Shown: positions 910-36,447 of the stretch, in pieces | How the letters are laid out: each line of letters begins with the position of its first letter | How positions within the stretch are numbered: position 1 is the first letter of the stretch | Source of the DNA: an uncultured Phycisphaera sp. | Lineage (GTDB): Bacteria > Planctomycetota > Phycisphaerae > Phycisphaerales > UBA1924 | Length of the DNA: 42,124 nucleotides | Reading direction: 5' to 3' | NCBI GenBank assembly: GCA_963977205.1 | Contig: CAXBOF010000001.1 | Location: forward strand, 1-42,124 | Made by a program: the position numbers and the translations under genes | Notes under the pieces: model-generated | Seen by the model: the letters and a program-made list of their open reading frames with translations, nothing else | Databases searched by the model: none | Told to the model about the DNA's origin: nothing

Positions 910-1989
910 TTACGTGAAGGCGAGCCCTTTGTCTCCCGCGCTCTCGTCACCCGGCCGGAATGCGCGCCAGCACATCGACAGTGCAAACGGCAGGAAGAAT
1001 GCAAAGAACGTACTGCCGATCGCAATGATTTCGTGCTGGCTTTCGGACCAGCACATGAAGTTCGGTGCAAACTCGTGGCCATTCTTTCCCGCGTCGCCGT
1101 CGGTCCAGAACGTGTGTGTCGTCACAAAGAGCGCAAAGGCTCCGAAAATGACAAACACGAAGCACACCGCTGTGATCACCATGTGGAGGACGCGGACGAC
1201 CTTTTCGAGACCTGTGTCACTCTGCGACTCGTCGTTTCCAGCCCTGGCAAACGCGGAAGTGAATCCGACAGAAAGCATCGCGCCTACAATTACGCCGTAC
1301 ACATTCATCCGCGCGTGATAGATGTCCTCCTGGAGGCCGGCGTCGGTCTGCACCGAGGTGTGAAACACGTCCTTGTTGTCGATCTTCAATCCGATGTTTG
1401 TCACAAGCCCCGCCATCGCCCCCAACAGGAGGACCGCGATGCCGTAAAAGCCCCAGAACCCCCAGAATGCGTTCGGATGGGTATCTTTCTTGATCGGATA
1501 CCCGCCGTGCCACAGGGCGGATATCGTCGCAGCCGCAAAAGTCCACGCGGCCATCGCGTCGAGCCCGGGGTTGCCCGCCGACCCAATCTCCATGATGGCG
1601 GGGCCCTTGAGAATGGTCGTGGTGTCGTAGGCGCATTTCTCCTGGTTCCCATTTGCGTCATTGGGAATTTTGTACGCAGCGTGATCCTGGACCGTCTCAA
1701 CAAACATCCAGAGGACGAACGCCGCAAACCCGAACATTGTTGCCATCATGATCCACCCGCGTGGGTCTTTCAGACGCTCTTTCAGACCCGCCATTCCCTT
1801 CTTTGCGTGCCAACACGCGGCGGACACAAGCATGCCCAAAGCAATCATGATGAGGCCGACCCACGAGAGCCAATGCACCGTGTCATCCGACTTTAGGTGG
1901 GACCGGACGCCAACGCCGCTGGCAAAAAGGATGCCGCCCACGACGGCGCCAGTCCCCGCAAGATCGTACCCATCTAGACTGCTGATCAT
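910..1989 (-). CDS. Multi-pass membrane protein, 359 aa, unknown function
   Basis: Uninterrupted ATG-to-stop ORF with high GC3. Several hydrophobic helices (WLSWVGLIMIALGMLVSAACW, FWGFWGFYGIAVLLLGAMAGLV, VITAVCFVFVIFGAFALFV). TATAAG lies 33 nt upstream of the ATG. Confidence 0.8.
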   Translation of the reverse strand: MISSLDGYDLAGTGAVVGGILFASGVGVRSHLKSDDTVHWLSWVGLIMIALGMLVSAACWHAKKGMAGLKERLKDPRGWIMMATMFGFAAFVLWMFVETVQDHAAYKIPNDANGNQEKCAYDTTTILKGPAIMEIGSAGNPGLDAMAAWTFAAATISALWHGGYPIKKDTHPNAFWGFWGFYGIAVLLLGAMAGLVTNIGLKIDNKDVFHTSVQTDAGLQEDIYHARMNVYGVIVGAMLSVGFTSAFARAGNDESQSDTGLEKVVRVLHMVITAVCFVFVIFGAFALFVTTHTFWTDGDAGKNGHEFAPNFMCWSESQHEIIAIGSTFFAFFLPFALSMCWRAFRPGDESAGDKGLAFT

Positions 1990-24400: not shown

Positions 24401-27400
24401 GACGGGTCGTTCGGGAAGGATCAGTGGAACCATCTGGACTCTGTATTCTACCACCAGTTTGTGAATCAGTACAACCTCCCAGGCTTCCAGATGAGCCTGG
24501 CTGGCGGCGACGACGATATCAGCACGAAGATTCCGCGCCCGCCAAACGCCGTTCCCGAGCCGACCGCCTACAATTCGCAACTTAACGCCGAGAACGACTG
24601 CTGGGCCCACCTGAGCGTCGGGGGCTGCGGAAACAACGGCGCGTGGAGCGCCCTCCCCGACTGCGCCCGTGACTCATTTGGGTCTCCAGGGGGCGATTTC
24701 CACTGCTTTGGGGGCGCAGACGGCGGCAACTACGTCGCCGACAACCCGGCGTGTGATCCGCGACAGTACGGAATAGACCTAAATGGAGGCCAGAAGGGGT
24801 GCACCAATGCGCGGGCGCGCTTCAAGGCATCTTCGGACTACTCGGTGAGCCCTTCGTCTGGGTCTGCGGATGGCGGTGCTGACTGCAGCGGCGCAGGTGT
24901 GGCCCTTTGTGGGCACTGGAGACGTCAACTACTCAATCTCTGGGACTGCGTATGGAACGGCAGTGCCAACCGGGCTCTTTGTGAGCAACAGGTTCAACGT
25001 GGAGTACCTGCAAAGGGAGGACAGGTTCGCGGAATCTACCGACAATGATGCCACCGGTTCGGAGCCAATACCGACGCTGAATGAATTCCTGGCTGTGGCC
25101 GCAAAGCGGGGCGCGTCCAACCCGTACGCCGTCATCAAACAGCTGTACCCCCACATGGTCTTTCCAAACGACGATGGCAAGTACGCCACCAACCTGTCGT
25201 CCATGAACGCCTTTGAGAGCTGCCAGTGCTTTGCGGGCCCCCTCAACAGCGACGGGCTGCCAAACTATCAGGCGTACAGCGACTACAGTGGCGGCGATGC
25301 GTTGGCGAAGAGCGATGGGGATCGCGTCACCTGGGGATGCACTGCTCAGGGCCCCGGGGGTTCGGCGGTCATGGGGAACGCCCCAGACCACGAACGGTGT
25401 GCCCCGAAGCGCCAGGGCGGCCATACGACGTTATGGCGGTGCTCTGGGCGAAAGGGCGGTGGCCACAGCTGCTACACGACCCGTCGCCCACAGACTCCCG
25501 GGCCCTTTCCGCGGAACGCAAACTGGGCCGATGCAGACATTCTGCGGCAGGGAACCTCAACGCCACCGAGCATTTCCGACGACGACATTGTTGCCAAGTT
25601 CGGCGGGAGTGGTGTCAAGCCCCGATGGTGGACAAAGGCGCTCGACGGTCTCCCCGCCGTCCGGGCCGGCGTCCTGGCGCTCATTGACGAATCCATCTGG
25701 AAGAACCCGGAGAAATGGCTGTCGACCAAAACGGCGTTCAAGAAGCGCCTGTACCGTGTGTCCAACCCGGACATGACTGAATTCGGGTACGCGGATCTCG
25801 AGGCGTTTCTGGATGTCGGCATCCTGGACATTGGCGATGCCGAGGATACCATGTTCGTCGTCCCCAATCGCGCGGACGAGCAAGCCCTGTACGTGAGGAC
25901 CGAAACCCGAGACCTCTGCAACGATTTCGGCCGCACGGGCGATAACAACACGGACTGGGCGGCGCACACGCTGACGGACGACCTCTTCAGGGCCGTGACG
26001 ACCGGAACGCCCGTCGAGTACGCAACCGAGGACCCTGCGGCCTACTGGAACATGACGGGCGATGTCGCAGTCTGCGCTGGAAATCTGCACGGCATGCCCA
26101 GCAACATGCCCGGTGCGCGCCAAAGCCCAGCCCCCTCTGCGTCCCGTTCGCTGACGGCTCCGCAGGCGTGTGCGGCCCCATTCCTGCACTCGAGGCGGCG
26201 TCGGCTGCGAGCCGGAATCTCAACGATGTGCCGTGTTCCCGCACCGGCATCGAGCTCCCCGTGTGCGGCAATCCCAGTTTCAATACGCACGATAGGACGA
26301 TGCGGCCCATCCTGGAGGGGTCCCAGTACGCGCACTACTGCAGTCCCACGTCAGGGATCGAGGGGTACGTCAATAGGAGCGTCGGCACCAGTCCCACGCT
26401 GCTGCAGTGTTTTGACGACGTTCTGGTACGCGGGTCTCGCAGCGTCCGCGCGGCGCCTTCTGACCCCATTGCCGCAGACGCCCTCGGACCGCGCGCAGTT
26501 TTGCTTTGGCGGTGGGTACGCCGGACTTAGGGGACTCCAGATGCCAAAGACGCGCCCTGCATCCCGCGTGTGCGACTCGACCACCGTCAACGCCGAGGGC
26601 AGCAGCGGCACCAGCACGTGCCTCGCGTTTGCGGGAGACCCCATTTGGACGGTGCAAAAGGTGCTCGATCAGGGCGATTTGACCTTTCCGGACGCCAGCG
26701 GGTACGGCGTGATTGTCGTTCCGGTGCGGCACACGCAGCGCGCCTTAACATGCCGGGCACTGACGGCGCGCCCAGGTCAATTACAGCATTGTGCGCCGGC
26801 TGCCCATGACGCTGGCGTACGAGGACGTGACGGTCGCCAATCGGTTTCAGGGCTCCCAGGCGTCCGAGGTGCACGTCACGCGGCTCCCGGATGGGTTTCC
26901 GTTCAAGACTGTGCCGACAAAGCTTGTGAACCAAAAGTCCGTCCTCAAGACCGCCATGTGCGGCGCCGACTTTAAGAACATGAACGCCCCCCAATCGTCG
27001 GATCCCCTGGAACGGCTTGCCAAGGTGATTGAGGCGCTGTTGGCCACGGACGGGTTCTGCACCGTCAGTCCCACCGAGAGCGTGCCGTGCCGCGGGGGGT
27101 ACTGTGTGCCCTTTCTCGAGTCGCAGGGGTCGGTGGTCCACACCTCGTGCGTGACCGAGGCTGAGATGTTTCCCCCGATTGCGGATACGGCGATCGAGGT
27201 GAAGCGGGGCAACGTGACGCTCAATCCATCGACGGCGTTTCAGAGGCCACTGTACTTTGGGGGCGTCGGGGGCAACACTCCGACATCGTGCGTCCGGGTC
27301 ACGGTGGGCGGTGCCGCGTTCAGAATGAGCGACGTTGTCTTTGATCAGACGGGGTGCGAGAGCCTGGCCGTGGCCGACCGCATCCCGGTTCTGTACGGCG

Positions 27401-28869
27401 GCAACAGCGCGGCGGGATCGTACATCTCGGGCATCTCGGTCCTCGGAAAGCCCGCTCCGGCCGTGACGTACCTCGGCAATGCGGCCGATGGCGATGCTCC
27501 GTACCTGGTCATGTCCGAACCCGACACCGCCAGCGCATACCTCGGCGACGTGGGGTTTGTGTTTAAGGTGCCGGACGATCCCTCCGAGCCCATTGGACTG
27601 GTTGCATCGATGGCCCGCACCATCGGAACGCAGCGGATTGAGCAGTGCGCCCGGAGCGACTGTTCCACCATCCGAACCCGGTCAGCGTCCGATCGGTGCG
27701 CCGAAGCGGCAGTGTGCTCCCAGCGGGGCTGTCCGTGGGACCTCAAGGGCCCGGGGTGCACGGACGACCCCGACGGGCCGTGTTTTCCCTTTTGCACCGT
27801 GGTGCTGACCAAGTGGGGAATCGGGTGTGCCAGGGGGTTCTCAAACGCAACCTTCCGGTACGCCATTGCGGCCGATACCGAGACGCAGCACGTGCCACAG
27901 ACCGGCGCCACGTACTCGGGCATTTCGATAGTGTCCGTGGCCGTGACGCCCGACACCCAGAGCTGCATCCTCAGCCGACCGCCGCTGCGCAACGAGACGT
28001 GCGCCCCCGACGATCCAAATCAGCAGTGGCTCATTGACGAGTCTTCCGGCGTTTCCCGGCTGCATCCAGTCCATCGGCCCTTTACGTGCATGATGATGTG
28101 GGGCGACCCCGACATTACCATCTCGGACGAATACGACAACGCCACCATCGGGTTCTTTCCGTGTCCGCCGTGCGACGTGGGCGTCGAAGAGACGGTCGAT
28201 GTGTGCGACGGGACTGCCCCCACGTACGAAGAGGCCGTGTGGTACGATACGCCCCCATACGAGACGCTGCCGATTCCAGTCTCGTACGACGACCACATCG
28301 TCGTGGCCGCCTTCCCCAACGGCAGCTGCCTGCTTCATTCGGGAGACGTGTGGGCCGACTGCCGCACCGAGTGCATCCGGGACGTTCCGGCCGAGATGTG
28401 CAACGGGACGGACGTGAAACCGGCCGGGGGACTGCTGCAGGCGTGCCGGCACGACGGATCTGTGGCCGCCATTGTCCGCCGGCAGTGCACCACGGGCGGC
28501 CCGATTGTACAGCCGCCGTCCGGATCGGGCGCCAGCGCCTCGTGCTTCCAGGGCTACTATCACATCTCGGCACACGGCCGCGGATACGTGTCGGGCGCGG
28601 CGACCATCAACGGCGTTTCCGTCACCATCTTCACATCGCAGGCCGTCATACAGCCCTACGACGAGTCTGCGGCCGTTGTGGGCGTCGGCGTGGACGTCTT
28701 TAACATTTCGGCAGTCACGGCCCTCTTTGGGCAAGCGTTCGAGCGCAATCTGTATCCGAGCAACAAGAGCACCGCCATCTACCTGGTGGCCGCCGTGGTG
28801 GCCTTTGCCCTCGGCATCATCATGCTCGTGATGGCCATGGTCAAACTCGCAAAGTCAAAGCAGGACTAG
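21495..28869 (+). CDS. Giant Cys-rich type I membrane glycoprotein, 13 exons, about 2248 aa: join(21495..22045,22098..22284,22344..22390,22440..22896,22947..23150,23202..23231,23286..23663,23725..24323,24367..24844,24897..26112,26166..26425,26478..26723,26776..28869)
   Basis: The coding signal hops between all three frames at 12 GT(GC)..AG introns, and every junction is phase-consistent. N-terminal signal-like MAAILAAAAVAV. About 27 N-x-S/T sequons counted by eye, many Cys. C-terminal TM IYLVAAVVAFALGIIMLVMAMV followed by KLAKSKQD. The junction near 24324..24390 and the GC-AG intron 23151..23201 are unresolved. Confidence 0.8.
22046..22097 (+). other. Intron 1 of giant glycoprotein gene, 52 nt
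   Basis: GTGCGT...CTGACtctgccgCAG, phase 2, frame 0 -> 1. Confidence 0.8.
22285..22343 (+). other. Intron 2, 59 nt
   Basis: GTGCCA...CTGACtgccgcttTTAG, phase 0. Followed by a 47-nt exon. Confidence 0.6.
22391..22439 (+). other. Intron 3, 49 nt
   Basis: GTGAGT...CCTGACggcccgCAG, phase 2. Confidence 0.7.
22897..22946 (+). other. Intron 4, 50 nt
   Basis: GTGCGT...CTCATtcgcctCAG, phase 0, frame 1 -> 0. Confidence 0.8.
23151..23201 (+). other. Possible GC-AG intron 5, 51 nt, in-frame and retainable
   Basis: AAG|GCGAGC...CTGACggcaccgCAG. Retention would insert ASRRATVAVPRHLTAPQ. No GT donor fits the phase. Confidence 0.35.
23232..23285 (+). other. Intron 6, 54 nt (follows a 30-nt exon)
   Basis: GTACAA...CTGAGcccgcccgCAG, phase 0. 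Contains the in-frame stop 23271..23273, so it must be removed. Confidence 0.7.
23664..23724 (+). other. Intron 7, 61 nt
   Basis: AAG|GTTGGC...CTCACgcgcccgCAG, phase 0, frame 0 -> 1. Confidence 0.6.
24324..24390 (+). other. Intron 8, boundaries unresolved (43 nt to acceptor 24366, or 67 nt to 24390)
   Basis: A frame 1 -> 2 switch is required somewhere in 24272..24390. Only donor GTTTCT at 24324 is phase-compatible with either CAG. No CTGAC motif is present. Confidence 0.3.
24845..24896 (+). other. Intron 9, 52 nt
   Basis: GTGAGC...CTGACtgcagcggcgCAG, phase 0, frame 2 -> 0. Confidence 0.85.
26113..26165 (+). other. Intron 10, 53 nt
   Basis: GTGCGC...CTGACggctccgCAG, phase 1, frame 0 -> 2. 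Confidence 0.85.
26426..26477 (+). other. Intron 11, 52 nt
   Basis: GTACGC...CTGACcccattgccgCAG, phase 0, frame 2 -> 0. Confidence 0.85.
26724..26775 (+). other. Intron 12, 52 nt
   Basis: GTGCGG...CTGACggcgcgccCAG, phase 0, frame 0 -> 1. Confidence 0.85.
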
Positions 28870-28912: not shown

Positions 28913-29801
28913 CTACCCAAAGAGGAACCACGCCAGTGCGAGTACTCCGGCCGAGACTGCGAAAAACTCGAATGCCGTGTACATGAGGTCCTTGGAGGCT
29001 CCGGTGTCGGTGACGCCCTCGTAAAAGCGCGTCTCGTACGCCCGGCCAAAGAGCCCGCCCGTGTACCGGTCCACGGAAAACACGGTGCCCGCATCGCCCG
29101 TTGGGGCCTTGGCGTCCTGGTACACGGCAATGGTTTCCGACCCATTGGCCACCCACTCGTCCTCGCAGGCGGCGACTGCAACAAGCGAGTTTACGGCACT
29201 CAGGCCGGCGCACCGCACGCTGAGCCGATCCACGGGGGGGATGATGACGGCGTACGCGCCCCGGACGTTGACGAGCTCGAGGCCGACGCCCACCAGTGGT
29301 CCGAATTCACCGACGCGCACGTTCTCGATGTGCACATTGGGCCCCGTCACCTGCGGTGGATCAGTACCGCGGCTGTACGGGTGCGGCGTGTGCGCGGAAC
29401 TGCCGTCATGTTCTGCACGGTACACTTGTTCGTTCCGATGAGCCACGAGCCCGTCGCCAGCGTCACGTTCACCATGGCTCCGTCGCACCAGTACTCTTTT
29501 GACCCAAGCGTATCCGTGACCGAATCTCCGTCGCCTGTGGGCCCGTCGGTCAGCACGAGGCGCACAGTCCCGAGTCCGCGTGCCCACCGTATGTGATGCC
29601 GGTCGATGCGTTTGCGACCGTTATGGCCACAAAGCTGTCGGGTGCCACGGCCACAATGTCGGTCGTGTCGACGCATCCGCGCCCCCCGGGGACTGCAGGC
29701 GGCCTGCACGTTCCATCCCAGAAGCAGACGCTGGTGGCAAGGCTGACGACGATTGTACCGACCCCCGGACTCACCGAAGTTGTGCATTCGGGAAACCGCA
29801 T
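28913..29801 (-). CDS. Type I membrane glycoprotein, complement(join(28913..29350,29401..29534,29588..29801)), 261 aa
   Basis: Three minus-strand frames are joined in phase by 53-nt (GTGGGC..CTGAC..CAG) and 50-nt (GTTCCG..CTGAT..CAG) introns. Sequons NAS, NVT, NMT, NGS. C-terminal TM FFAVSAGVLALAWFLF. ATG lies 28 nt from the shared TATA at 29830..29836. Confidence 0.7.
29351..29400 (-). other. Intron, 50 nt (minus strand)
   Basis: Minus-strand GTTCCG...CTGATccaccgCAG, phase 0. Confidence 0.75.
29535..29587 (-). other. Intron, 53 nt (minus strand)
   Basis: Minus-strand GTGGGC...CTGACcgacgggcccaCAG, phase 1. Confidence 0.75.
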
Positions 29802-29829
29802 GTTCCTGCATTCCTAGTAGAATCGACGC

Positions 29830-29836
29830 ATATATC
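29830..29836. promoter_or_regulatory. Bidirectional TATA element (ATATATC)
   Basis: 28 nt from minus-strand ATG 29801 and 18 nt from plus-strand ATG 29855 (kinase). Confidence 0.5.
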
Positions 29837-29854
29837 ATCACAACCTGTCTGCCG

Positions 29855-30937
29855 ATGGACTCGGGCACAGACTCGGACAGTTCGGCCGGGATGGTCGCGC
29901 CGTCTGGATGGCAGGATCTTGTCCAGATCGCGCCCGGGGTACACGCGGCCACCGGGCGGGACGGCAGAAGGGTGGTCATCAAGGCGTTTTTGCCCGATCA
30001 CGACTACCGAGATGCAAACCTGGCGGCCGCGGGCATTGGGGCGCTACTCTTGCCGGACCAGGGCAAATTCGATCCGAACACAGTTGTGCCAAATCTAGTC
30101 TTTACGGGCAGGGAACCTCGCCAGTACCCTCCCTGCAAAAGGCTCGGCACCAGCGGACTCGTGTACTGCGATGCCGAGCTGACTGACGAAGGAGTTGCAC
30201 TTCCAAACACTCGGAGGCGATCCGTCGTCGACGACGATACTGGCACGGAGTACGTCCCCAAAGCAATTCGCGTGCTCCCACTGCACACCCGTGACATTTC
30301 AGTCATCTCAGAGTGCCTGGAACAGTGCCGACTGCTCAAGCCGGGGAGCGAGGATGTCACGATTGTTTTTGAGTGGCTGTGCGACCTGGCCGAGACGCTC
30401 TCCGATTATGGGGTGCATCTGACCGACCTCAAGGCGGACAACATGGTCTGCACTCGGCCGGCGGGGAAGCTGCAGCCAAAGCTGATTGACTGGGATCAGG
30501 TTGTGCACTATGGCATTGGCGGGGACTACAGGCGCGAGGAGCCGCGTTCGTGCACCACCTTCTTCAACTACGTGCACCTGATGCTGGCGAATGACCCCGA
30601 CCGGCTCCACACGCTGCTAGAGTGCGGGGCGGCGCGGACGGTGTACGAGGCGGGACTCGCGACGCTCAAGTTAGTATTCGACCCATCGGGCCGCGCCTCT
30701 CCGGAACACCCGCCGGTGGCCAAGGCATACCTGCCCCTCGAGGCGCTGACGACTGCCAACATTGCCATGTGCGACCCTCGGCCGCCCACCGTCCGGCCTG
30801 CGCTGACCGCCGACCGCAGGTACGCGATACAGTACGGATGGAACCTGCCGCCCGAATTTGGAAACCTCGACATGGAGTACACGTGGGCGTGGGTCGCAGT
30901 AGATCCGACGTTTGCAGCTGCACCCATGGCGCTATAA
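29855..30937 (+). CDS. Protein kinase-like protein, 360 aa
   Basis: RVVIKAF (VAIK-like Lys), VHLTDLKADNMV (HxDxKxxN catalytic loop), KLIDWDQ (DFG-position). Start moved to ATG 29855, downstream of the TATA at 29830..29836. Confidence 0.75.
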   Translation: MDSGTDSDSSAGMVAPSGWQDLVQIAPGVHAATGRDGRRVVIKAFLPDHDYRDANLAAAGIGALLLPDQGKFDPNTVVPNLVFTGREPRQYPPCKRLGTSGLVYCDAELTDEGVALPNTRRRSVVDDDTGTEYVPKAIRVLPLHTRDISVISECLEQCRLLKPGSEDVTIVFEWLCDLAETLSDYGVHLTDLKADNMVCTRPAGKLQPKLIDWDQVVHYGIGGDYRREEPRSCTTFFNYVHLMLANDPDRLHTLLECGAARTVYEAGLATLKLVFDPSGRASPEHPPVAKAYLPLEALTTANIAMCDPRPPTVRPALTADRRYAIQYGWNLPPEFGNLDMEYTWAWVAVDPTFAAAPMAL

Positions 30938-31109
30938 GGATTAGACACGCCAGTGCCAACCGCGCGCCCTCTATGGATGATGCAACAGAGTGCAATCTGC
31001 TGTGCAGAGCGCTTGCGCGATGGGCGTGGGTCACAGTAGATCCGACGTTTGCAGCTGCACCCATGGCGCTATAAGGATTAGACACGCCAGTGCCAACCGC
31101 GCACCCTCT
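30884..31109. repeat. 89-bp direct duplication of the kinase gene 3' end plus downstream sequence
   Basis: 30884..30972 and 31021..31109 differ at 2 positions. The spacer is 48 nt. Confidence 0.9.
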
Positions 31110-31141
31110 GTGAAACAGGGCAGAAGCATCCCCGCTTTCAG

Positions 31142-32448
31142 ATGGAAAAGAAGACGTACATCATCTCATGGAACGCCATCGCGGCGGCGATCCACTTTGG
31201 CGTCGCAGGATTCGTAATCTCGGAGGTCGCCGGCGGCGCTTTCCGGGTGCCAGTGCATCCGCTGACGCTCGCTCCAGGTGTACCAGCATCCGTGGGAGGC
31301 CCCCTTTGTCGTCCAGTATTCCCAGTGGAATCAGACGGGCGATGAGCGGTGCTCGGCCGAATCCCAGTGCCTCATCGCGCAAGCCTCGGTGCGCAAAACG
31401 CGTCTGCCAGGGCGCGCCCGTCCTGACTGGACCACTTCCGCAGATTGACTGGGGCACGGCCAATGTCGGCATGATCGTGGGTCGGATGCCCTGCCGCCAG
31501 CCCGCCCGCCCTGACGCGCTGCAGGTGCCATTCTTCAGCGTCATCTCCGGGGCCCATCATGCCGCCGTCGCCGTGTGGGTCGGTTGGGAGGGGGTCGATG
31601 CCTACCTCAAAATGGCCAAACGGGGCAACTGGCTGCGGGCAGTTGACTATGCACTCTCGTCGTCCCTGATGCTCGTCGTCACATCCATCCTGTTTCGGTC
31701 GCCGCCCGACGTGCCAACCCTGATGCTCGTGGCTGCAGTCCAGAGCGCCATCATCCTCATCGGGTACCTCCTCGAACGACTCCAGTACCGCCAGACCACT
31801 ACGGAGGAAAGGCAACCGCTTTTATCGGGCCAGGGAGACGACATCTCTACAGTGGACACTGCTGCGATTCAAGGCGATTTGACCGCGGATACGACGTCCG
31901 GGAAGCAGGCCTTTGGCGTGTGGATCCCGTTTGCGGCGTCGATGCTGATTTACGCTTTGGTGTGGACCAGCCTCCTGATCCCTTTTCACTACGCGGTGGA
32001 AGATGCGCCGACGGCGGTGGTGATTTTCATTGCGAGTCTTGCGGCACCCGGTGCGCGGCGAGGTCTGACTGTGGCCGCTGCAGGTCTACCTGGTGGCGAC
32101 GTTCACGCTCTTCCCGATCGTGTTTGTGTTTGGGGCGCCGGGACTGGGTCGCGAGACGGGCTTTCTGATTCTGAGCATGCTTGCCAAGGTGGGCAGTCCT
32201 GTGGCGGCACTGCGGCGACATTGCACGCTGACCGCGGCGCCCAGGTTCCGCTTCTGATGCTCTTTTACTTTGGGATTGTGGCGCGGTCGGGGACGGTTGT
32301 GTTCGAACGGCTGGAGGGTGCATTCAACACGACCGGCTCGTCCTCGTCCGCCAGCGACACCGAACTGTACATCGCGTTCGGCGCCTCTATTGCCGTCGTG
32401 ACCATCGTGGCCATCCTGATGTGGGGGACCAGGCCGAACCGAAAGTAG
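31142..32448 (+). CDS. Heliorhodopsin, 6 exons join(31142..31225,31278..31388,31444..31476,31525..32040,32084..32188,32245..32448), about 350 aa
   Basis: The spliced product aligns by eye with heliorhodopsin 48C12 (recalled from memory). AIHFGVAG matches GVFHLLQ. SGAHHAAV matches SALFHFIV. NWLRAVDYALSSSLMLVV matches NIFRWVEYSLSSSVMIVL, with Asp at the counterion position. RETGFLILSMLAK matches GERAYIVLSLVAK, the Schiff-base Lys (codon 32186..32188). That lysine exon is in a different frame from the long track ORF. The junction at 32017..32083 is unresolved. Confidence 0.85.
31226..31277 (+). other. Heliorhodopsin intron 1, 52 nt
   Basis: GTCGCC...CTGACgctcgctcCAG, phase 0, frame 2 -> 0. Confidence 0.7.
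31389..31443 (+). other. Heliorhodopsin intron 2, 55 nt
   Basis: GTGCGC...CTGACtggaccacttccgCAG, phase 0, frame 0 -> 1. Confidence 0.75.
31477..31524 (+). other. Heliorhodopsin intron 3, 48 nt, in-frame and retainable
   Basis: GTGGGT...CTGACgcgctgCAG, phase 0. Removal deletes VGRMPCRQPARPDALQ and gives VGMIVPFFSVISGAHH, which aligns with the heliorhodopsin TM2 region. Confidence 0.65.
32041..32083 (+). other. Heliorhodopsin intron 4, donor unresolved (GC-AG 43 nt shown; GT donors at 32017 or 32020 are alternatives)
   Basis: Acceptor CTGACtgtggccgctgCAG at 32083 is required to enter the frame encoding the lysine exon. Only phase-0 donors work. The consensus-looking GTGCGC at 32051 is out of phase. 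Confidence 0.3.
32189..32244 (+). other. Heliorhodopsin intron 5, 56 nt
   Basis: AAG|GTGGGC...CTGACcgcggcgccCAG, phase 0, immediately after the Schiff-base Lys codon. Returns to frame 1. Confidence 0.85.
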
Positions 32449-34581: not shown

Positions 34582-35940
34582 TCAGTCCGTCTCTACGACG
34601 GCGGTGATGCCGGGCCCGACTGTAAAGAGCTCGCGCCTGGTGGCACGCTGGGCGGCGACGAGGAAGTGCGTCTTCCGGATGCTTCCGTTTCCGACGACGT
34701 GAACGCCTGCTGGGGCCGTCATGCCCTGAGCCATGTCGATGGTGAAGCCGCCTGTGGGAGTTTAGCGGGCGCGCGCCCACATCCGCGCGGGCCTGGAAAT
34801 ACCGTGCCGGATGGGAACCACAAAGTGGCCTTCGAGCTCGAGGGGCTGCAGCGACACCTCTTCGCCAGTGCTGAGGATCGTGACGACGACGATGGCGTTT
34901 TCACCCATGACGACCGAGTCGGCCTCGATCTCTTCGCCGTCCTCGGAGATGACGCGCTCAAATCGGATGTCAGTCCCGTTGGTGAGCAGCGTCCCCCTTT
35001 CGGTGGCCCTGGCCTTGGTGTCAATGTCGACGCAGCCGTAGACGAGCCAGCCCTTGGTGTGGCCGCCCACAAAGCGCCCATCTTCGGCGTCCTTGCCGCG
35101 CTCCTTGGGGATGGTTTCGGGGTCGCTGGGGAGCAGCAGGATGCCCTCTCTGTCATTCTCGCGGAACTGCCGCACTGCTTCCCGCACATCCTCCCTGATC
35201 TGCCCGAGGATCAGAGCCCCCTCTGGCGGAACGGCAGCCCGACGCTGCCGGACAAGCTGATCCGCCAGCCCGCCCGGGATTTGCCATTCCTGGAGCTCGC
35301 TGAGGACGCGCTTCCAGTCGGGGTCCGTGTACCGCCGCGACTCTTTCAGCTCGATCGGGGGCGCCCTGCGCAGCAGAGGATGCGTGGATGCGGGCTTTCC
35401 ACCCCTCGGCTTGATCTGGCCCTCGTCGCCCACAAACAGGACGCGGACGCCGCCAAACGGCATCGACCTCGCCCGAAAGGTGCACCTCAGGATGGCATCC
35501 AGCTTGGCAATCTCGGCCGATGTCCACAGGCCAAACTCTTCGACGACAAGGATCTTTGGCGTCCCGGCGGGCGTATTGTACCACGGCTTTGATTTGGCAG
35601 TGCCGAGGGGAACCTTTGCCCACCATTTGGCGTCGATGGCGATCTTGGCCCACACGACGGCTTCTGGTGGGTAGCTGCCCCGCGGAACGGCGAGCCCGGC
35701 AATCGTCTGCCGGTGCTGCCCCAGCGACTTGTGGCTGATGGCAGTCACCATCACGCGGCAGCCGGCGTTTACCCAGCATCTGAGGACGTCTGCCACGACG
35801 ACGGACTTGCCAGTTCCGGCTTTCCCTATGAGCAGCACAACGCGGTGCGCCTCGAATAAGTCGCCGATCTGATCCGCTGCGGCCCTTTGCTCGCCCGACA
35901 GCACGGGGGGAGCCTGCGGAGTGGATTCGCGCCCGTCCAT
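34582..35940 (-). CDS. Pif1/RecD-like SF1 helicase, complement(join(34582..34751,34803..35940)), 435 aa
   Basis: Walker A LLIGKAGTGKSVV, motif II KILVVEEFG, MPFGGVRVLFVGDEGQIKP. Removing a 51-nt GTATTT..CTAAAC..CAG intron (phase 1) adds GFTIDMAQGMT...HFLVAAQRATRRELFTV, the C-terminal conserved motifs of this helicase type. Confidence 0.85.
34752..34802 (-). other. Intron, 51 nt (SF1 helicase gene, minus strand)
   Basis: Minus-strand GTATTT...CTAAACtcccaCAG, phase 1. Removes stop 34762..34764 and restores the helicase C-terminal motifs. Confidence 0.85.
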
Positions 35941-36093: not shown

Positions 36094-36447
36094 TTAGGGC
36101 ACCTGCGCTGCCCCCGTCTTTGGAGTGTCCTTCTTGACCTCGACGACGACCGAGTGCCCGGGCACGGCGATTAGCAGGTCTGCCCGCCCGGTTCCACAAT
36201 GGACGGGTCCATCAGCGCCGATCGGGGTGTACATGATGGGACAGGGCGCCTCGCGGGTCACCGAGACTCCGGGGAGCATGTGGCGGACCTCGGCGGCAAG
36301 GGCGGTGGAGATCCACTCTTCCCGGCAGGGGTAATCCTTGAAGGCGCGGGCGACGCGCCAGGCGCTGGCCTTGACGGCCCACTCGACGCGGGCAATCCAC
36401 GCATCAGTTCCTTCGTGCCCGCCCCGACCGAGTCCTGCCGCCGCCAT
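36094..36447 (-). CDS. PD-(D/E)XK (VRR-NUC-like) nuclease, 117 aa
   Basis: ...GTGRADLLIAVPGHSVVVEVKKD is a D..(n)..E.K nuclease-core pattern. I start at ATG 36447 (MAAAGLG...), 36 nt downstream of a TATAAT. The upstream part of the 420-aa track ORF is Arg-rich shadow sequence. Confidence 0.5.
   Translation of the reverse strand: MAAAGLGRGGHEGTDAWIARVEWAVKASAWRVARAFKDYPCREEWISTALAAEVRHMLPGVSVTREAPCPIMYTPIGADGPVHCGTGRADLLIAVPGHSVVVEVKKDTPKTGAAQVP

What the first reader, a model, noticed from the sequence alone, without database searches (positions are those of the whole stretch)
31142..32448. Heliorhodopsin gene split into six exons, with its Schiff-base lysine exon hidden in an alternative frame
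The long frame-1 track ORF (31168..32448) reads straight through, yet the retinal-binding segment RETGFLILSMLAK is encoded in frame 2 (32084..32188). It is bracketed by a CTGAC..CAG acceptor and an AAG|GTGGGC donor. Only the spliced product has seven helices with the two conserved His residues, an acidic residue (Asp, in ...RAVDYALSSS...) at the counterion position and the TM7 Lys. An automatic ORF caller would therefore annotate a rhodopsin without its lysine. The entry into the lysine exon cannot be made with the consensus-looking GTGCGC donor at 32051, which is out of phase. It needs either a GC-AG 43-nt intron (32041..32083) or GT donors at 32017 or 32020, which shorten TM6.
Basis: partly seen in the sequence, partly recalled or inferred. 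Interest (0 to 1): 0.8.

Follow-up and report, generated by a model that had tools for sequence, protein, structure and literature searches.

The report
Intron-split heliorhodopsin gene, probably viral
This is a real light-sensor (heliorhodopsin) gene cut into six pieces by five tiny introns, so ordinary gene callers predict a protein without its retinal-binding lysine; it most likely belongs to the recently described intron-rich marine mirusviruses, which makes it a well-documented example rather than a new kind of thing.

Summary
Window 31142..32448 (+) encodes a heliorhodopsin (HeR) in six exons separated by five phase-0 introns of 48-56 nt, each with a CTGAC branch site and a CAG acceptor. 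The Schiff-base lysine exon (32084..32188) lies in a different frame from the 426-aa read-through ORF.

A spliced contig from a close relative (L007) lacks exactly these five introns. An intronless homologue (P0006) is collinear across every junction. GC3 is 0.75-0.82 in the proposed frame of each exon.

The 347-aa product scores 57.8 bits on Pfam PF18761. Its model has pLDDT 87, and the ten best PDB fold matches are all heliorhodopsins.

Two boundaries differ from simpler readings:
- Intron 4 is a 52-nt GC-AG intron (32032..32083, att|GCGAGT). It is not 32041, 32017 or 32020.
- Intron 1 is 31226..31277.

Public protein collections hold only lysine-less read-through ORFs for this gene.

The surroundings are marine, 64% G+C and almost all ORFans, with similar introns in neighbouring genes. 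This fits the intron-rich mirusviruses published in 2025, in which HeR is a core gene. No capsid hallmark gene was found, so that assignment is inferred.

The protein has an extra eighth helix and lacks the Glu/Trp hallmark of proton-transporting viral HeRs. Verdict: a new member of a known kind, of moderate interest.

The parts
31142..31225 (+). Exon 1 (28 aa, MEKKTYIISWNAIAAAIHFGVAGFVISE). Holds the start codon and TM1 with His18 (codon 31193-31195), the equivalent of H23 in HeR 48C12.
   Evidence: The ATG is conserved in relatives L014-L017, and a 1-nt indel just upstream marks non-coding sequence. The exon end is set by spliced contig L007. GC3 is 0.79.
31226..31277 (+). Intron 1: 52 nt, phase 0, GTCGCC...CTGAC...CTCCAG.
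   Evidence: Absent from L007 and present in genomic relatives L014-L017. The branch A lies 12 nt from the 3' end.
31278..31388 (+). Exon 2 (37 aa). Extracellular beta-hairpin with sequon N46-Q-T and the Cys53/Cys59 pair.
31389..31443 (+). Intron 2: 55 nt, phase 0, GTGCGC...CTGAC...CCGCAG.
   Evidence: Absent from L007 and present in L013-L017.
31444..31476 (+). Exon 3 (11 aa, IDWGTANVGMI).
   Evidence: Collinear with the intronless P0006.
31477..31524 (+). Intron 3: 48 nt, phase 0, GTGGGT...CTGAC...CTGCAG. It is in frame and has no stop codon, which is why the long ORF reads through it.
31525..32031 (+). Exon 4 (169 aa). TM2-TM5 and the start of TM6. Contains Ser84, His88 (31558-31560), Asn111, Arg114, the counterion Asp117 (31645-31647), and a variable disordered TM4-TM5 loop.
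   Evidence: Alignment to 48C12 matches H88 to H80, N111 to N101 and D117 to E107. Pfam. Loop indels among strains. Low pLDDT over residues 173-204.
32032..32083 (+). Intron 4: 52 nt, phase 0, GC-AG (att|GCGAGT...CTGAC...GCTGCAG|gtc).
   Evidence: L007 reads ...GATTTTCATT|GTCTACCTGG.... The GC donor is identical in all five genomic strains (window, L013-L016). The intronless P0006 has VVVFI|VYMV.
32084..32188 (+). Exon 5 (35 aa). The rest of TM6, then TM7 up to the Schiff-base lysine: Glu269, Ser276, Lys280 (AAG 32186-32188).
   Evidence: Frame differs from the read-through ORF. GC3 is 0.80 and T at codon position 2 is 0.51 in this frame only. The E..S...K motif is nearly invariant in the family.
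32189..32244 (+). Intron 5: 56 nt, phase 0, GTGGGC...CTGAC...GCCCAG.
32245..32448 (+). Exon 6 (67 aa plus stop). End of TM7, a linker with sequon N308-T-T, an extra C-terminal helix TM8 (residues 318-341, nt 32356-32427) and a basic tail.
   Evidence: AlphaFold2 gives helix 318-341 with block-mean pLDDT about 76-96, lowest at its start. The helix is conserved in P0006 and in 81 of 118 family representatives.
31168..32448 (+). Read-through ORF (426 aa; annotated from Met at 31342 as the 368-aa P0002). This is the product that ORF callers report, and it lacks the lysine.
30884..31112 (+). Two 92-nt direct repeats (30884-30975 and 31021-31112, 97% identical). They span the 3' end of the upstream gene and the region just 5' of the HeR start codon.
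   Evidence: Role not tested.

Best explanation
Window 31142..32448 is a functional heliorhodopsin gene interrupted by five short spliceosomal introns of 52, 55, 48, 52 and 56 nt, all phase 0. Four are GT-AG and one (intron 4) is GC-AG. Each carries a CTGAC branch site 10-17 nt from a CAG acceptor.

A eukaryotic nuclear spliceosome joins six exons into a 1,044-nt coding sequence. The 347-aa product has the heliorhodopsin fold, with His18, His88, counterion Asp117 and the SxxxK lysine Lys280. It also has an eighth C-terminal transmembrane helix.

Introns 4 and 5 together remove 108 nt, and stop codons are rare in 64% G+C DNA. The unspliced sequence therefore stays open as one long ORF, which gene callers report as a rhodopsin without its lysine.

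Inferred, not shown: the gene sits in the genome of an intron-rich, nucleus-replicating marine virus of the mirusvirus type, or in an integrated copy of one. It is transcribed and spliced in the host nucleus and inserted through the ER. Two sequons and a Cys pair face the lumenal or extracellular side.

TM6 has no Glu or Trp, so I expect a slow-photocycle sensory or regulatory heliorhodopsin rather than a V2HeR3-type proton transporter.
For: Splicing:
- Contig L007 (89% identical protein P0001) lacks exactly the five introns. Five independent genomic assemblies keep them.
- The intronless homologue P0006 is collinear across all five junctions with no gaps.
- Intron lengths and signals are uniform.
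- GC3 is 0.75-0.82 in the proposed frame of every exon. Introns are 73% G+C and exons 60%.

Family:
- Pfam PF18761 scores 57.8 bits for the spliced product and 40.7 for the read-through P0002. The intronless P0006 matches profile positions 2-241 of 242.
- Alignment to 48C12 places the His, Asp and Lys residues at the expected positions.
- The AlphaFold2 model has pLDDT 87.2 and pTM 0.85.
- The ten best PDB fold matches are all heliorhodopsins, with TM-score up to 0.78.

Context:
- Identical contigs occur in Tara Oceans and other marine metagenomes.
- Across 113 ORFs, the only Pfam families found are HeR, PIF1/AAA_30, ankyrin, zinc fingers (C2H2 and RING) and a tail-collar domain, apart from one probably spurious hit.
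- Intron motifs are about four times enriched in the window.
- A second gene, 24870..26975, has two such introns whose middle exon is 77% conserved in its own frame in relative L020.
- Medvedeva et al. 2025 (PMC12768974) report intron-rich mirusvirus orders with CTGAC/CYSAC branch sites, 13-14% Pfam-annotated genes, 25-72% G+C, and HeR as a core function.

Function:
- TM6 (residues 239-261) has no D, E or W. E191 and W195 are the hallmark of proton-transporting viral HeRs (PMC9448325).
Against: - I could not verify the sample type of L007 (JGI 3300039353). That it is RNA-derived is inferred from its structure.
- No read-level RNA data for the window's own strain were available.
- No mirusvirus hallmark gene (HK97-fold capsid protein, portal, terminase, triplex) was found in the window, in its roughly 8.4-kb extension through L009, or in the related loci. 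The lineage is absent from the IMG/VR scan. The viral assignment is therefore circumstantial.
- The mirusvirus paper reports a peak intron length near 80 bp and overwhelmingly GT-AG introns. Here the introns are about 52 nt and one is GC-AG.
- Retinal binding, topology and function are predictions.
Confidence: 0.8

Rival explanations
1. The gene is cellular. It would be a nuclear gene of a GC-rich marine protist, or part of a decaying endogenous viral element in such a genome, rather than part of an actively replicating virus.
For: - Spliceosomal introns are first of all a eukaryotic feature.
- No virion hallmark gene was seen.
- A relative lies on a 145-kb long-read contig.
- The lineage is not in IMG/VR.
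- Gaia et al. 2023 note HeR exchange between mirusviruses and Micromonas.
Against: - In about 50 kb only a handful of ORFs hit any Pfam family, and none is a housekeeping gene.
- The conserved neighbours have only 3-9 homologues among 5.8 billion proteins, all within this lineage.
- Gene packing is dense and gene order is collinear across relatives at 40-78% identity, with strain-level microdiversity across many metagenomes.
- No Rfam family matched.
Confidence: 0.22
2. The unspliced 368/426-aa read-through protein is the real product, giving a lysine-less rhodopsin-like protein. Alternatively, the locus is a pseudogene or an assembly or frameshift artefact.
For: The ORF is open over 1,281 nt, and this is what public collections annotate.
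Against: - The read-through segments (e.g. GLPGGDVHALPDRVCVWGAGTGSRDGLSDSEHACQGG) are not membrane-like and replace TM6-TM7.
- GC3 and T2 periodicity pick the other frame for exon 5.
- A spliced sequence exists (L007).
- The intronless homologue matches only the spliced product.
- Five independent assemblies agree base for base at the splice sites.
- Long open frames are expected by chance at 64% G+C. There are 68 ORFs of 200 aa or more in 42 kb, on both strands.
Confidence: 0.03
3. Entry into the lysine exon uses one of the first reader's donors (GC at 32041, or GT at 32017 or 32020) as the main splice site.
For: All three are in phase. Position 32017 is homologous to the GT donor actually used by intron 4 in the divergent relative L019.
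Against: - L007 joins ...ATTTTCATT to GTCTACCTG..., which places the donor at 32032, in a strain whose genomic sequence there is the same.
- P0006 has VVVFI|VYMV with neither an ASL insertion nor a VVIFI deletion.
- GCGAGT at 32032 matches the donor consensus better than GCGGCA at 32041.
- A 52-nt intron fits the 48-56 nt length class.
Confidence: 0.05
4. The protein works as a light-activated proton transporter that depolarises the host membrane, like V2HeR3 of Emiliania huxleyi virus 202.
For: - Viral HeRs of one clade transport protons (PMC9448325).
- The best BFVD structural match is a 288-aa viral protein, G8DFM6, with TM-score 0.72.
- Glu269, equivalent to V2HeR3 E215, is conserved.
Against: E191 is described as essential for transport and W195 as part of the gate. 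TM6 here has no acidic residue and no Trp. The alignment to 48C12 places Leu248 and Phe252 at those positions, but that stretch of the alignment scores poorly.
Confidence: 0.12

Closest known systems
Heliorhodopsins with solved structures: 48C12 (6su3, 6uh3) and Thermoplasmatales TaHeR (6is6)
   Same: - Same fold (Foldseek E 1.6e-7 to 4.5e-6, TM-score 0.63-0.78).
- Same Pfam family.
- Same long beta-hairpin in the first extracellular loop.
- Same key residues: both His, Ser84 (equivalent to S76), Asn111, Arg114, Glu269 and the SxxxK lysine.
   Different: - Only 15-21% identity.
- The counterion is Asp rather than Glu. Asp is typical of this clade, and the TaHeR E108D mutant exists as 7clj.
- A disulfide-capable Cys pair and an N-glycosylation sequon lie in the hairpin.
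- There is a 32-residue disordered TM4-TM5 loop.
- There is an eighth C-terminal transmembrane helix.
- The gene is interrupted by introns.
Heliorhodopsins of Mirusviricota, a core function of these viruses (Gaia et al. 2023, PMC10132985; Medvedeva et al. 2025, PMC12768974)
   Same: - Marine plankton metagenome source.
- HeR lies in an ORFan-rich genome.
- Neighbouring genes also carry spliceosomal introns.
- The CTGAC branch site matches that reported for Styxvirales and fits the CYSAC of Okeanovirales.
- The same mOTUs-style contig names appear as in that study.
   Different: - No capsid, portal or terminase gene was found on the DNA I could read.
- Introns are about 52 nt, against the reported mode of about 80 bp.
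- One intron here is GC-AG, as is one in relative L019. The paper mentions only GT-AG and rare AT-AC.
- The papers do not describe HeR gene structures (three mentions in the main text, none about introns).
V2HeR3, the proton-transporting heliorhodopsin of Emiliania huxleyi virus 202 (Hososhima et al. 2022, PMC9448325)
   Same: A virus-associated eukaryotic-type HeR with a conserved counterion and conserved Glu269 (equivalent to E215). The best BFVD match is a viral protein.
   Different: - It lacks the E191/W195 gate residues.
- It has an extra TM8.
- Coccolithovirus genes are not intron-split.
Spliceosomal introns in other large DNA viruses (pandoraviruses, some chloroviruses), as cited in PMC12768974
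   Same: Viral genes that depend on the host nuclear spliceosome.
   Different: Here one 1.3-kb gene carries five introns and its neighbours carry more. That density is reported only for the intron-rich mirusvirus orders.

Membership tests
Heliorhodopsin (Pfam PF18761) | Sequence matches the family profile above the curated threshold | tested here: met
   The spliced product scores 57.8 bits against a cutoff of 26.7. Its intronless homologue P0006 scores 69.8 bits over profile positions 2-241 of 242.
Heliorhodopsin (Pfam PF18761) | Seven-helix rhodopsin fold that is closest to solved heliorhodopsins, including the long ECL1 beta-hairpin | tested here: met
   The model has pLDDT 87.2 and strands at 35-47 and 59-72. 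The ten best PDB matches are all HeRs, and type-1 rhodopsins follow only at E of 0.03 or worse.
Heliorhodopsin (Pfam PF18761) | SxxxK motif with the Schiff-base lysine in TM7 | tested here: met
   S276-M-L-A-K280 is encoded only in the spliced frame. It aligns to S237..K241 of 48C12 and is nearly invariant in the family.
Heliorhodopsin (Pfam PF18761) | A single acidic counterion in TM3 (E107 in 48C12) plus the two conserved histidines (H23, H80) | tested here: met
   D117 and H88 align to E107 and H80. H18 is invariant in the family alignment, and its equivalence to H23 rests on the conserved TM1 WN...H context. The counterion is Asp rather than Glu, as in most members of this clade.
Heliorhodopsin (Pfam PF18761) | Inverted membrane topology (N-terminus cytoplasmic) | tested here: inconclusive
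   The loop K+R count is 7 inside against 4 outside. Both N-x-S/T sequons and both Cys fall in loops predicted to be outside. This is consistent but weak, and no experiment is available.
Heliorhodopsin (Pfam PF18761) | Binds all-trans retinal and shows a photocycle | not testable with these tools
   Needs expression of the 347-aa cDNA.
Spliceosomal (U2-type) introns | GT-AG or GC-AG boundaries with a branch site upstream of the acceptor | tested here: met
   Four introns are GT-AG and one is GC-AG. CTGAC lies 10-17 nt from the 3' end in all five.
Spliceosomal (U2-type) introns | Precise removal from the mature RNA | tested here: met
   Contig L007 lacks exactly the five introns, while five genomic assemblies retain them. 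Caveat: L007 comes from a closely related strain, and I could not check whether its sample is RNA.
Mirusviricota (intron-rich orders Okeanovirales / Styxvirales) | Virion module: HK97-fold major capsid protein, portal, terminase, triplex proteins, protease | tested here: inconclusive
   No hit in the window, in its roughly 8.4-kb extension through L009, or in relatives, using Pfam and PHROGs and the precomputed Pfam listings of the related contigs. These genes have weak or no Pfam models and may lie elsewhere in a genome of more than 200 kb. A model of the 692-aa conserved protein was unusable (pLDDT 28).
Mirusviricota (intron-rich orders Okeanovirales / Styxvirales) | Many spliceosomal introns with a CTGAC/CYSAC branch site; few annotated genes; no replication or transcription genes; heliorhodopsin and RING finger among the core functions | tested here: met
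   The intron motif is enriched (19 against 4.4). A second intron-split gene was found. Apart from one probably spurious hit, the Pfam families found are HeR, PIF1/AAA_30 helicase, ankyrin, C2H2 and RING zinc fingers, and a tail-collar domain.
Proton-transporting viral heliorhodopsins (V2HeR3 group) | Glu in TM6 (E191) with Trp four residues later (W195) | tested here: not met
   TM6 is TAVVIFIVYLVATFTLFPIVFVF, with no D, E or W. The criterion comes from PMC9448325.

The most novel reading that the evidence does not exclude
Two linked readings remain open.

First, the locus may belong to a lineage of intron-bearing nuclear viruses or elements that is not yet catalogued. It could be a cryptic mirusvirus clade or something outside Mirusviricota. 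Its neighbour proteins have only 3-9 relatives among 5.8 billion sequences.

Second, its heliorhodopsin may represent an undescribed eukaryote/virus subfamily. That subfamily would have eight transmembrane helices, so both termini are cytoplasmic. It would also have an Asp counterion and a glycosylated, disulfide-bonded hairpin. Surveys that required exactly seven helices would have missed it.

In this lineage the spliceosome routinely accepts GC donors, and intron 4 has moved by 15 nt between relatives.
Probability: 0.25. Interest if true: 0.55.

Novelty: new member of a known kind. Interest (0 to 1): 0.35.

Why it matters
- Annotation. Every public protein entry I found for this gene and its genomic relatives (NCBI, ENA, JGI, Logan, Tara) is a read-through ORF without the retinal lysine. 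Only one transcript-like contig gives the true protein. Rhodopsin surveys that require the SxxxK lysine or exactly seven helices will therefore discard or misjudge these genes. They will undercount light sensors in nucleus-replicating plankton viruses.
- Experiment. The exact 1,044-nt coding sequence given here can be synthesised and tested directly.
- Host. The intron signature is a fingerprint of the unknown host's spliceosome and could help identify that host. It consists of a length near 52 nt, GTGSGC or GYGAGT donors, a CTGAC branch site, a CAG acceptor and tolerance of GC donors.
- Scale. None of this changes the current picture. It fills in one gene of a picture published in 2023-2025.

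Tried and rejected
1. I replaced it after seeing L007 and the multi-strain alignment.
2. Pfam on the ten longest ORFs gave nothing. Pfam and PHROGs on all 113 ORFs of 170 aa or more gave no virion or replication hallmark.
3. The IMG/VR scan with the HeR alignment found no relatives. An exact-match scan of GTDB genomes found none, so the contig is not in a prokaryotic species-representative genome.
4. Searching the supplements of PMC12768974 for the Tara sample and contig names gave no hit in the stored, truncated files.
5. I tried to identify the conserved 692-aa neighbour (26791..28866) as a hallmark protein. The PDB sequence search found nothing and Pfam nothing above its threshold. Only 3 homologues exist, and the AlphaFold2 model had pLDDT 28, so no fold search was run.
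6. The homology search with the PIF1-like helicase returned 9 unnamed hits, all from the same lineage.
7. A look-up of window ORF 910..1989(-) found no record.
8. tRNA and Rfam scans gave one doubtful ARAGORN tRNA-Ala and no Rfam match.
9. Literature searches for eight-helix heliorhodopsins found no description.
10. 'Ariadnavirales' (HeR-encoding nuclear nucleocytoviruses) were considered and rejected, because they are reported to have no introns.
Full report
**1. What is in the sequence**

The window is 64% G+C throughout. Between 31142 and 32448 on the + strand the three forward frames each carry pieces of one membrane protein.
- An ATG at 31142 opens MEKKTYIISWNAIAAAIHFG....
- A 426-aa ORF (31168..32448) runs through the whole region in another frame.
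- The peptide VYLVATFTLFPIVFVFGAPGLGRETGFLILSMLAK sits at 32084..32188 in the third frame.

The read-through ORF already matches Pfam Heliorhodopsin (PF18761, E 3.5e-10), but only over the middle of the profile.

**2. The exon-intron structure**

A search of 5.8 billion predicted proteins with a provisional spliced product returned nine relatives.
- Four of them (P0002-P0005) are read-through ORFs that lack the lysine segment. P0002 is the protein annotated for the window itself.
- P0001, from a 981-nt JGI contig (L007), is 89% identical. It runs straight from ...AVVIFI into VYLVATF...SMLAK and on into VPLLMLFYF.
- P0006 (42% identical) is encoded without interruption on a 6.6-kb genomic contig of 49% G+C.

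I aligned the window, four genomic relatives from other metagenomes (L013-L016) and L007. L007 lacks exactly five segments that every genomic copy retains. This fixes the model as follows:

| Feature | Coordinates | Length / note |
|---|---|---|
| Exon 1 | 31142-31225 | |
| Intron 1 | 31226-31277 | 52 nt |
| Exon 2 | 31278-31388 | |
| Intron 2 | 31389-31443 | 55 nt |
| Exon 3 | 31444-31476 | |
| Intron 3 | 31477-31524 | 48 nt |
| Exon 4 | 31525-32031 | |
| Intron 4 | 32032-32083 | 52 nt |
| Exon 5 | 32084-32188 | lysine exon |
| Intron 5 | 32189-32244 | 56 nt |
| Exon 6 | 32245-32448 | |

All introns are in phase 0. Each has CTGAC with its branch A 10-17 nt from a CAG acceptor. Four begin with GT. 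Intron 4 begins with GC (att|GCGAGT), and this GC is identical in all five genomic strains.

The true donor, however, is 9 nt upstream of the proposed 32041, and the GT donors at 32017 and 32020 are not used in L007.

Four independent lines support the model.
- The intronless P0006 aligns across all five junctions without a gap.
- GC3 is 0.75-0.82 in the proposed frame of every exon, and 0.80 for exon 5 in its own frame.
- T at codon position 2 in exon 5 is 0.51 in the proposed frame and 0.18 in the other two.
- Introns are 73% G+C and exons 60%.

The full donor + CTGAC + CAG motif occurs 19 times in the window, against 4.4 +/- 2.4 expected.

The long read-through ORF is not evidence for an unspliced product. 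Introns 4 and 5 together remove 108 nt, so the frame is restored. Intron 3 is 48 nt, in frame and without stops. At 64% G+C the window has 68 ORFs of 200 aa or more on both strands.

**3. The protein**

The 347-aa product scores 57.8 bits on PF18761, against 40.7 bits for the read-through P0002. Alignment to heliorhodopsin 48C12 gives these equivalences:

| This protein | 48C12 |
|---|---|
| Ser84 | S76 |
| His88 | H80 |
| Asn111 | N101 |
| Arg114 | R104 |
| Asp117 | E107 (counterion) |
| Glu269 | E230 |
| Ser276 | S237 |
| Lys280 | K241 |

His18, which I equate with H23 of 48C12, is invariant in the family alignment. The TM6-TM7 rows of the table come from a second, poorly scoring stretch of that alignment. 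They are backed by near-invariance of E269, S276 and K280 in the family.

A profile search of 1.84 billion cluster representatives found 319 relatives at E of 0.001 or better. In an alignment of 42 of them, His18 is invariant, and His88, Glu269, Ser276 and Lys280 are nearly invariant. The counterion is mostly Asp.

AlphaFold2 with that alignment gave pLDDT 87.2 and pTM 0.85. The model shows seven helices, the long beta-hairpin typical of heliorhodopsins, a disordered TM4-TM5 loop and an eighth helix at residues 318-341. The ten best PDB fold matches are all heliorhodopsins, and type-1 rhodopsins follow with E-values four orders of magnitude worse.

The extra C-terminal hydrophobic segment is present in 81 of 118 family representatives in which the TM7 motif could be located. 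I found no description of it in the paper library. One large survey kept only sequences with exactly seven helices.

The only two N-x-S/T sequons (N46, N308) and the conserved Cys53/Cys59 pair all lie in loops predicted to face outward. This fits passage through a eukaryotic secretory pathway and a topology with both termini inside. It remains inference.

**4. Likely function**

Proton-transporting viral heliorhodopsins need a Glu in TM6 (E191) and have a Trp four residues later (PMC9448325). TM6 here contains no acidic residue and no Trp. I therefore expect a non-transporting, slow-photocycle sensory or regulatory heliorhodopsin, and I give about 12% to a proton transporter. This is inference from sequence, and nothing here measures function.

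**5. Where the gene lives**

Contigs carrying exactly the window's annotated read-through protein P0002 occur in Tara Oceans and other marine assemblies. The exact read-through protein is held by NCBI, ENA and Logan.

Of 113 ORFs of 170 aa or more in the window, Pfam recognises only a few families. These are HeR, a PIF1/AAA_30 helicase, ankyrin repeats, C2H2 and RING fingers, a tail-collar domain and one probably spurious hit. Called genes for about 8.4 kb beyond the window's end have no recorded Pfam hits.

Divergent relatives (L018-L022, 40-78% protein identity) keep the HeR-PIF1 neighbourhood. L020 keeps a collinear gene order over 20 kb. Two conserved neighbours have only 3 and 9 homologues in the whole collection, all from this lineage.

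A second gene (24870..26975) carries two introns of 53 and 52 nt. Its middle exon is 77% conserved in its own frame in L020. Introns with hidden-frame exons are therefore a property of the genome, not of this gene alone.

This profile matches the intron-rich mirusvirus orders described by Medvedeva et al. 2025. That description includes:
- marine source and the same mOTUs-style contig names;
- 25-72% G+C;
- 13-14% of genes with a Pfam annotation;
- no replication or transcription genes;
- spliceosomal introns with a CTGAC (Styxvirales) or CYSAC (Okeanovirales) branch site;
- heliorhodopsin and RING fingers among the few core functions.

Gaia et al. 2023 report high expression of mirusvirus heliorhodopsins. 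HeR-encoding 'Ariadnavirales' have no introns and are excluded.

I did not find a capsid, portal or terminase gene. The lineage is absent from the IMG/VR scan. An attempt to fold a conserved 692-aa neighbour failed. I put the viral, mirusvirus-type assignment at roughly 0.65-0.7 and a cellular or endogenous origin at about 0.2-0.25.

**6. Intron dynamics**

In relative L019 the HeR gene has six introns.
- Introns 1, 2, 3 and 5 are at the same codons as in the window.
- Intron 4 is GT-AG (GTGAGT) and lies 15 nt upstream, giving A|VVIFIS... instead of VVIFI|VY....
- An additional 56-nt GC-AG intron (GCATGT, phase 1) splits ARSG|TVV.

P0006's gene has no introns. GC donors therefore recur in this lineage and intron positions shift. 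This agrees with the dynamic gain and loss reported for mirusvirus genes. GC-AG introns are not mentioned in that paper.

**7. Verdict**

One boundary is corrected: the intron 4 donor is at 32032.

The thing itself is a new, cleanly resolved member of a known kind. It is a heliorhodopsin gene of an intron-rich, most likely mirusvirus-type, genome. Its practical value is the corrected coding sequence and the demonstration that public annotations of this gene family lack the lysine. The eighth helix, the GC-AG introns and the shifted intron are modest new details.

Interest 0.35.

Noticed in passing
window 24870..26975 (+); introns 26113-26165 and 26426-26477: A second gene shows the same hidden-frame-exon effect. 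Two introns of 53 and 52 nt (GTGCGC/GTACGC...CTGAC...CGCAG) bracket an exon at 26166-26425. That exon is 77% identical, in its own frame, to relative L020, where the three parts also lie in three different frames.
   Followed up: partly
window 32356..32427 (HeR residues 318-341): There is an eighth, C-terminal transmembrane helix after TM7. It is preceded by a conserved N-T-T sequon and acidic residues. A hydrophobic segment after TM7 is present in 81 of 118 related representatives. I found no description of it in the paper library, and one large heliorhodopsin survey kept only seven-helix sequences.
   Followed up: partly
L019:2491-2539 and L019:2753-2808, compared with window 32032-32083: In a relative that is 42% identical, intron 4 sits 15 nt (5 codons) upstream and is GT-AG. 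A further GC-AG intron (GCATGT, phase 1) splits ARSG|TVV. This shows a shifted intron position and recurrent GC donors within one lineage.
   Followed up: partly
window 30884-30975 and 31021-31112: A 92-nt direct repeat (97% identical, 137-nt spacing) covers the last codons of the upstream gene and the region immediately 5' of the HeR start. It could be a duplicated 3'-end or promoter element.
   Followed up: no
window 26791..28866 (+): A 692-aa protein that is Cys-rich, carries many N-x-S/T sequons and has a single C-terminal membrane anchor with a short basic tail. It resembles a type I envelope glycoprotein. GC3 of the enclosing open frame is 0.82, the highest in the window. Only 3 homologues exist among 5.8 billion proteins. 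The AlphaFold2 model was unusable (pLDDT 28).
   Followed up: partly
window 29753..30937 (+), with a candidate intron at 30769-30819: The gene upstream of HeR contains a kinase-like catalytic-loop motif (HLTDLKADNMV), judged by eye, but has no Pfam hit at E of 0.01 or better. It also contains a 51-nt intron-like element whose 3' end resembles that of HeR intron 5. In relative L022 an APH-like kinase ORF also lies near HeR.
   Followed up: no
window 34762..35940 (-); L018, L019, L020, L022: A PIF1/AAA_30 helicase gene lies next to HeR in the divergent relatives examined (L018-L022). In the window the two are separated by one 561-aa ORF on the minus strand. The window from about 22 to 42 kb is collinear with L020.
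   Followed up: partly
window 36292..36388 (-): ARAGORN calls a 97-nt tRNA-Ala(CGC). It lies within the span of a 420-aa ORF on the same strand. Rfam finds no tRNA at its gathering threshold, so this is probably a false positive in GC-rich DNA.
   Followed up: partly
L009:12801-15398 and L009:15464-18163 (just beyond the window's right end): Two adjacent large proteins (865 and 899 aa) have hydrophobic N-terminal halves and Cys-rich C-terminal motifs. By eye they look like paralogues. Neither has a Pfam hit.
   Followed up: no
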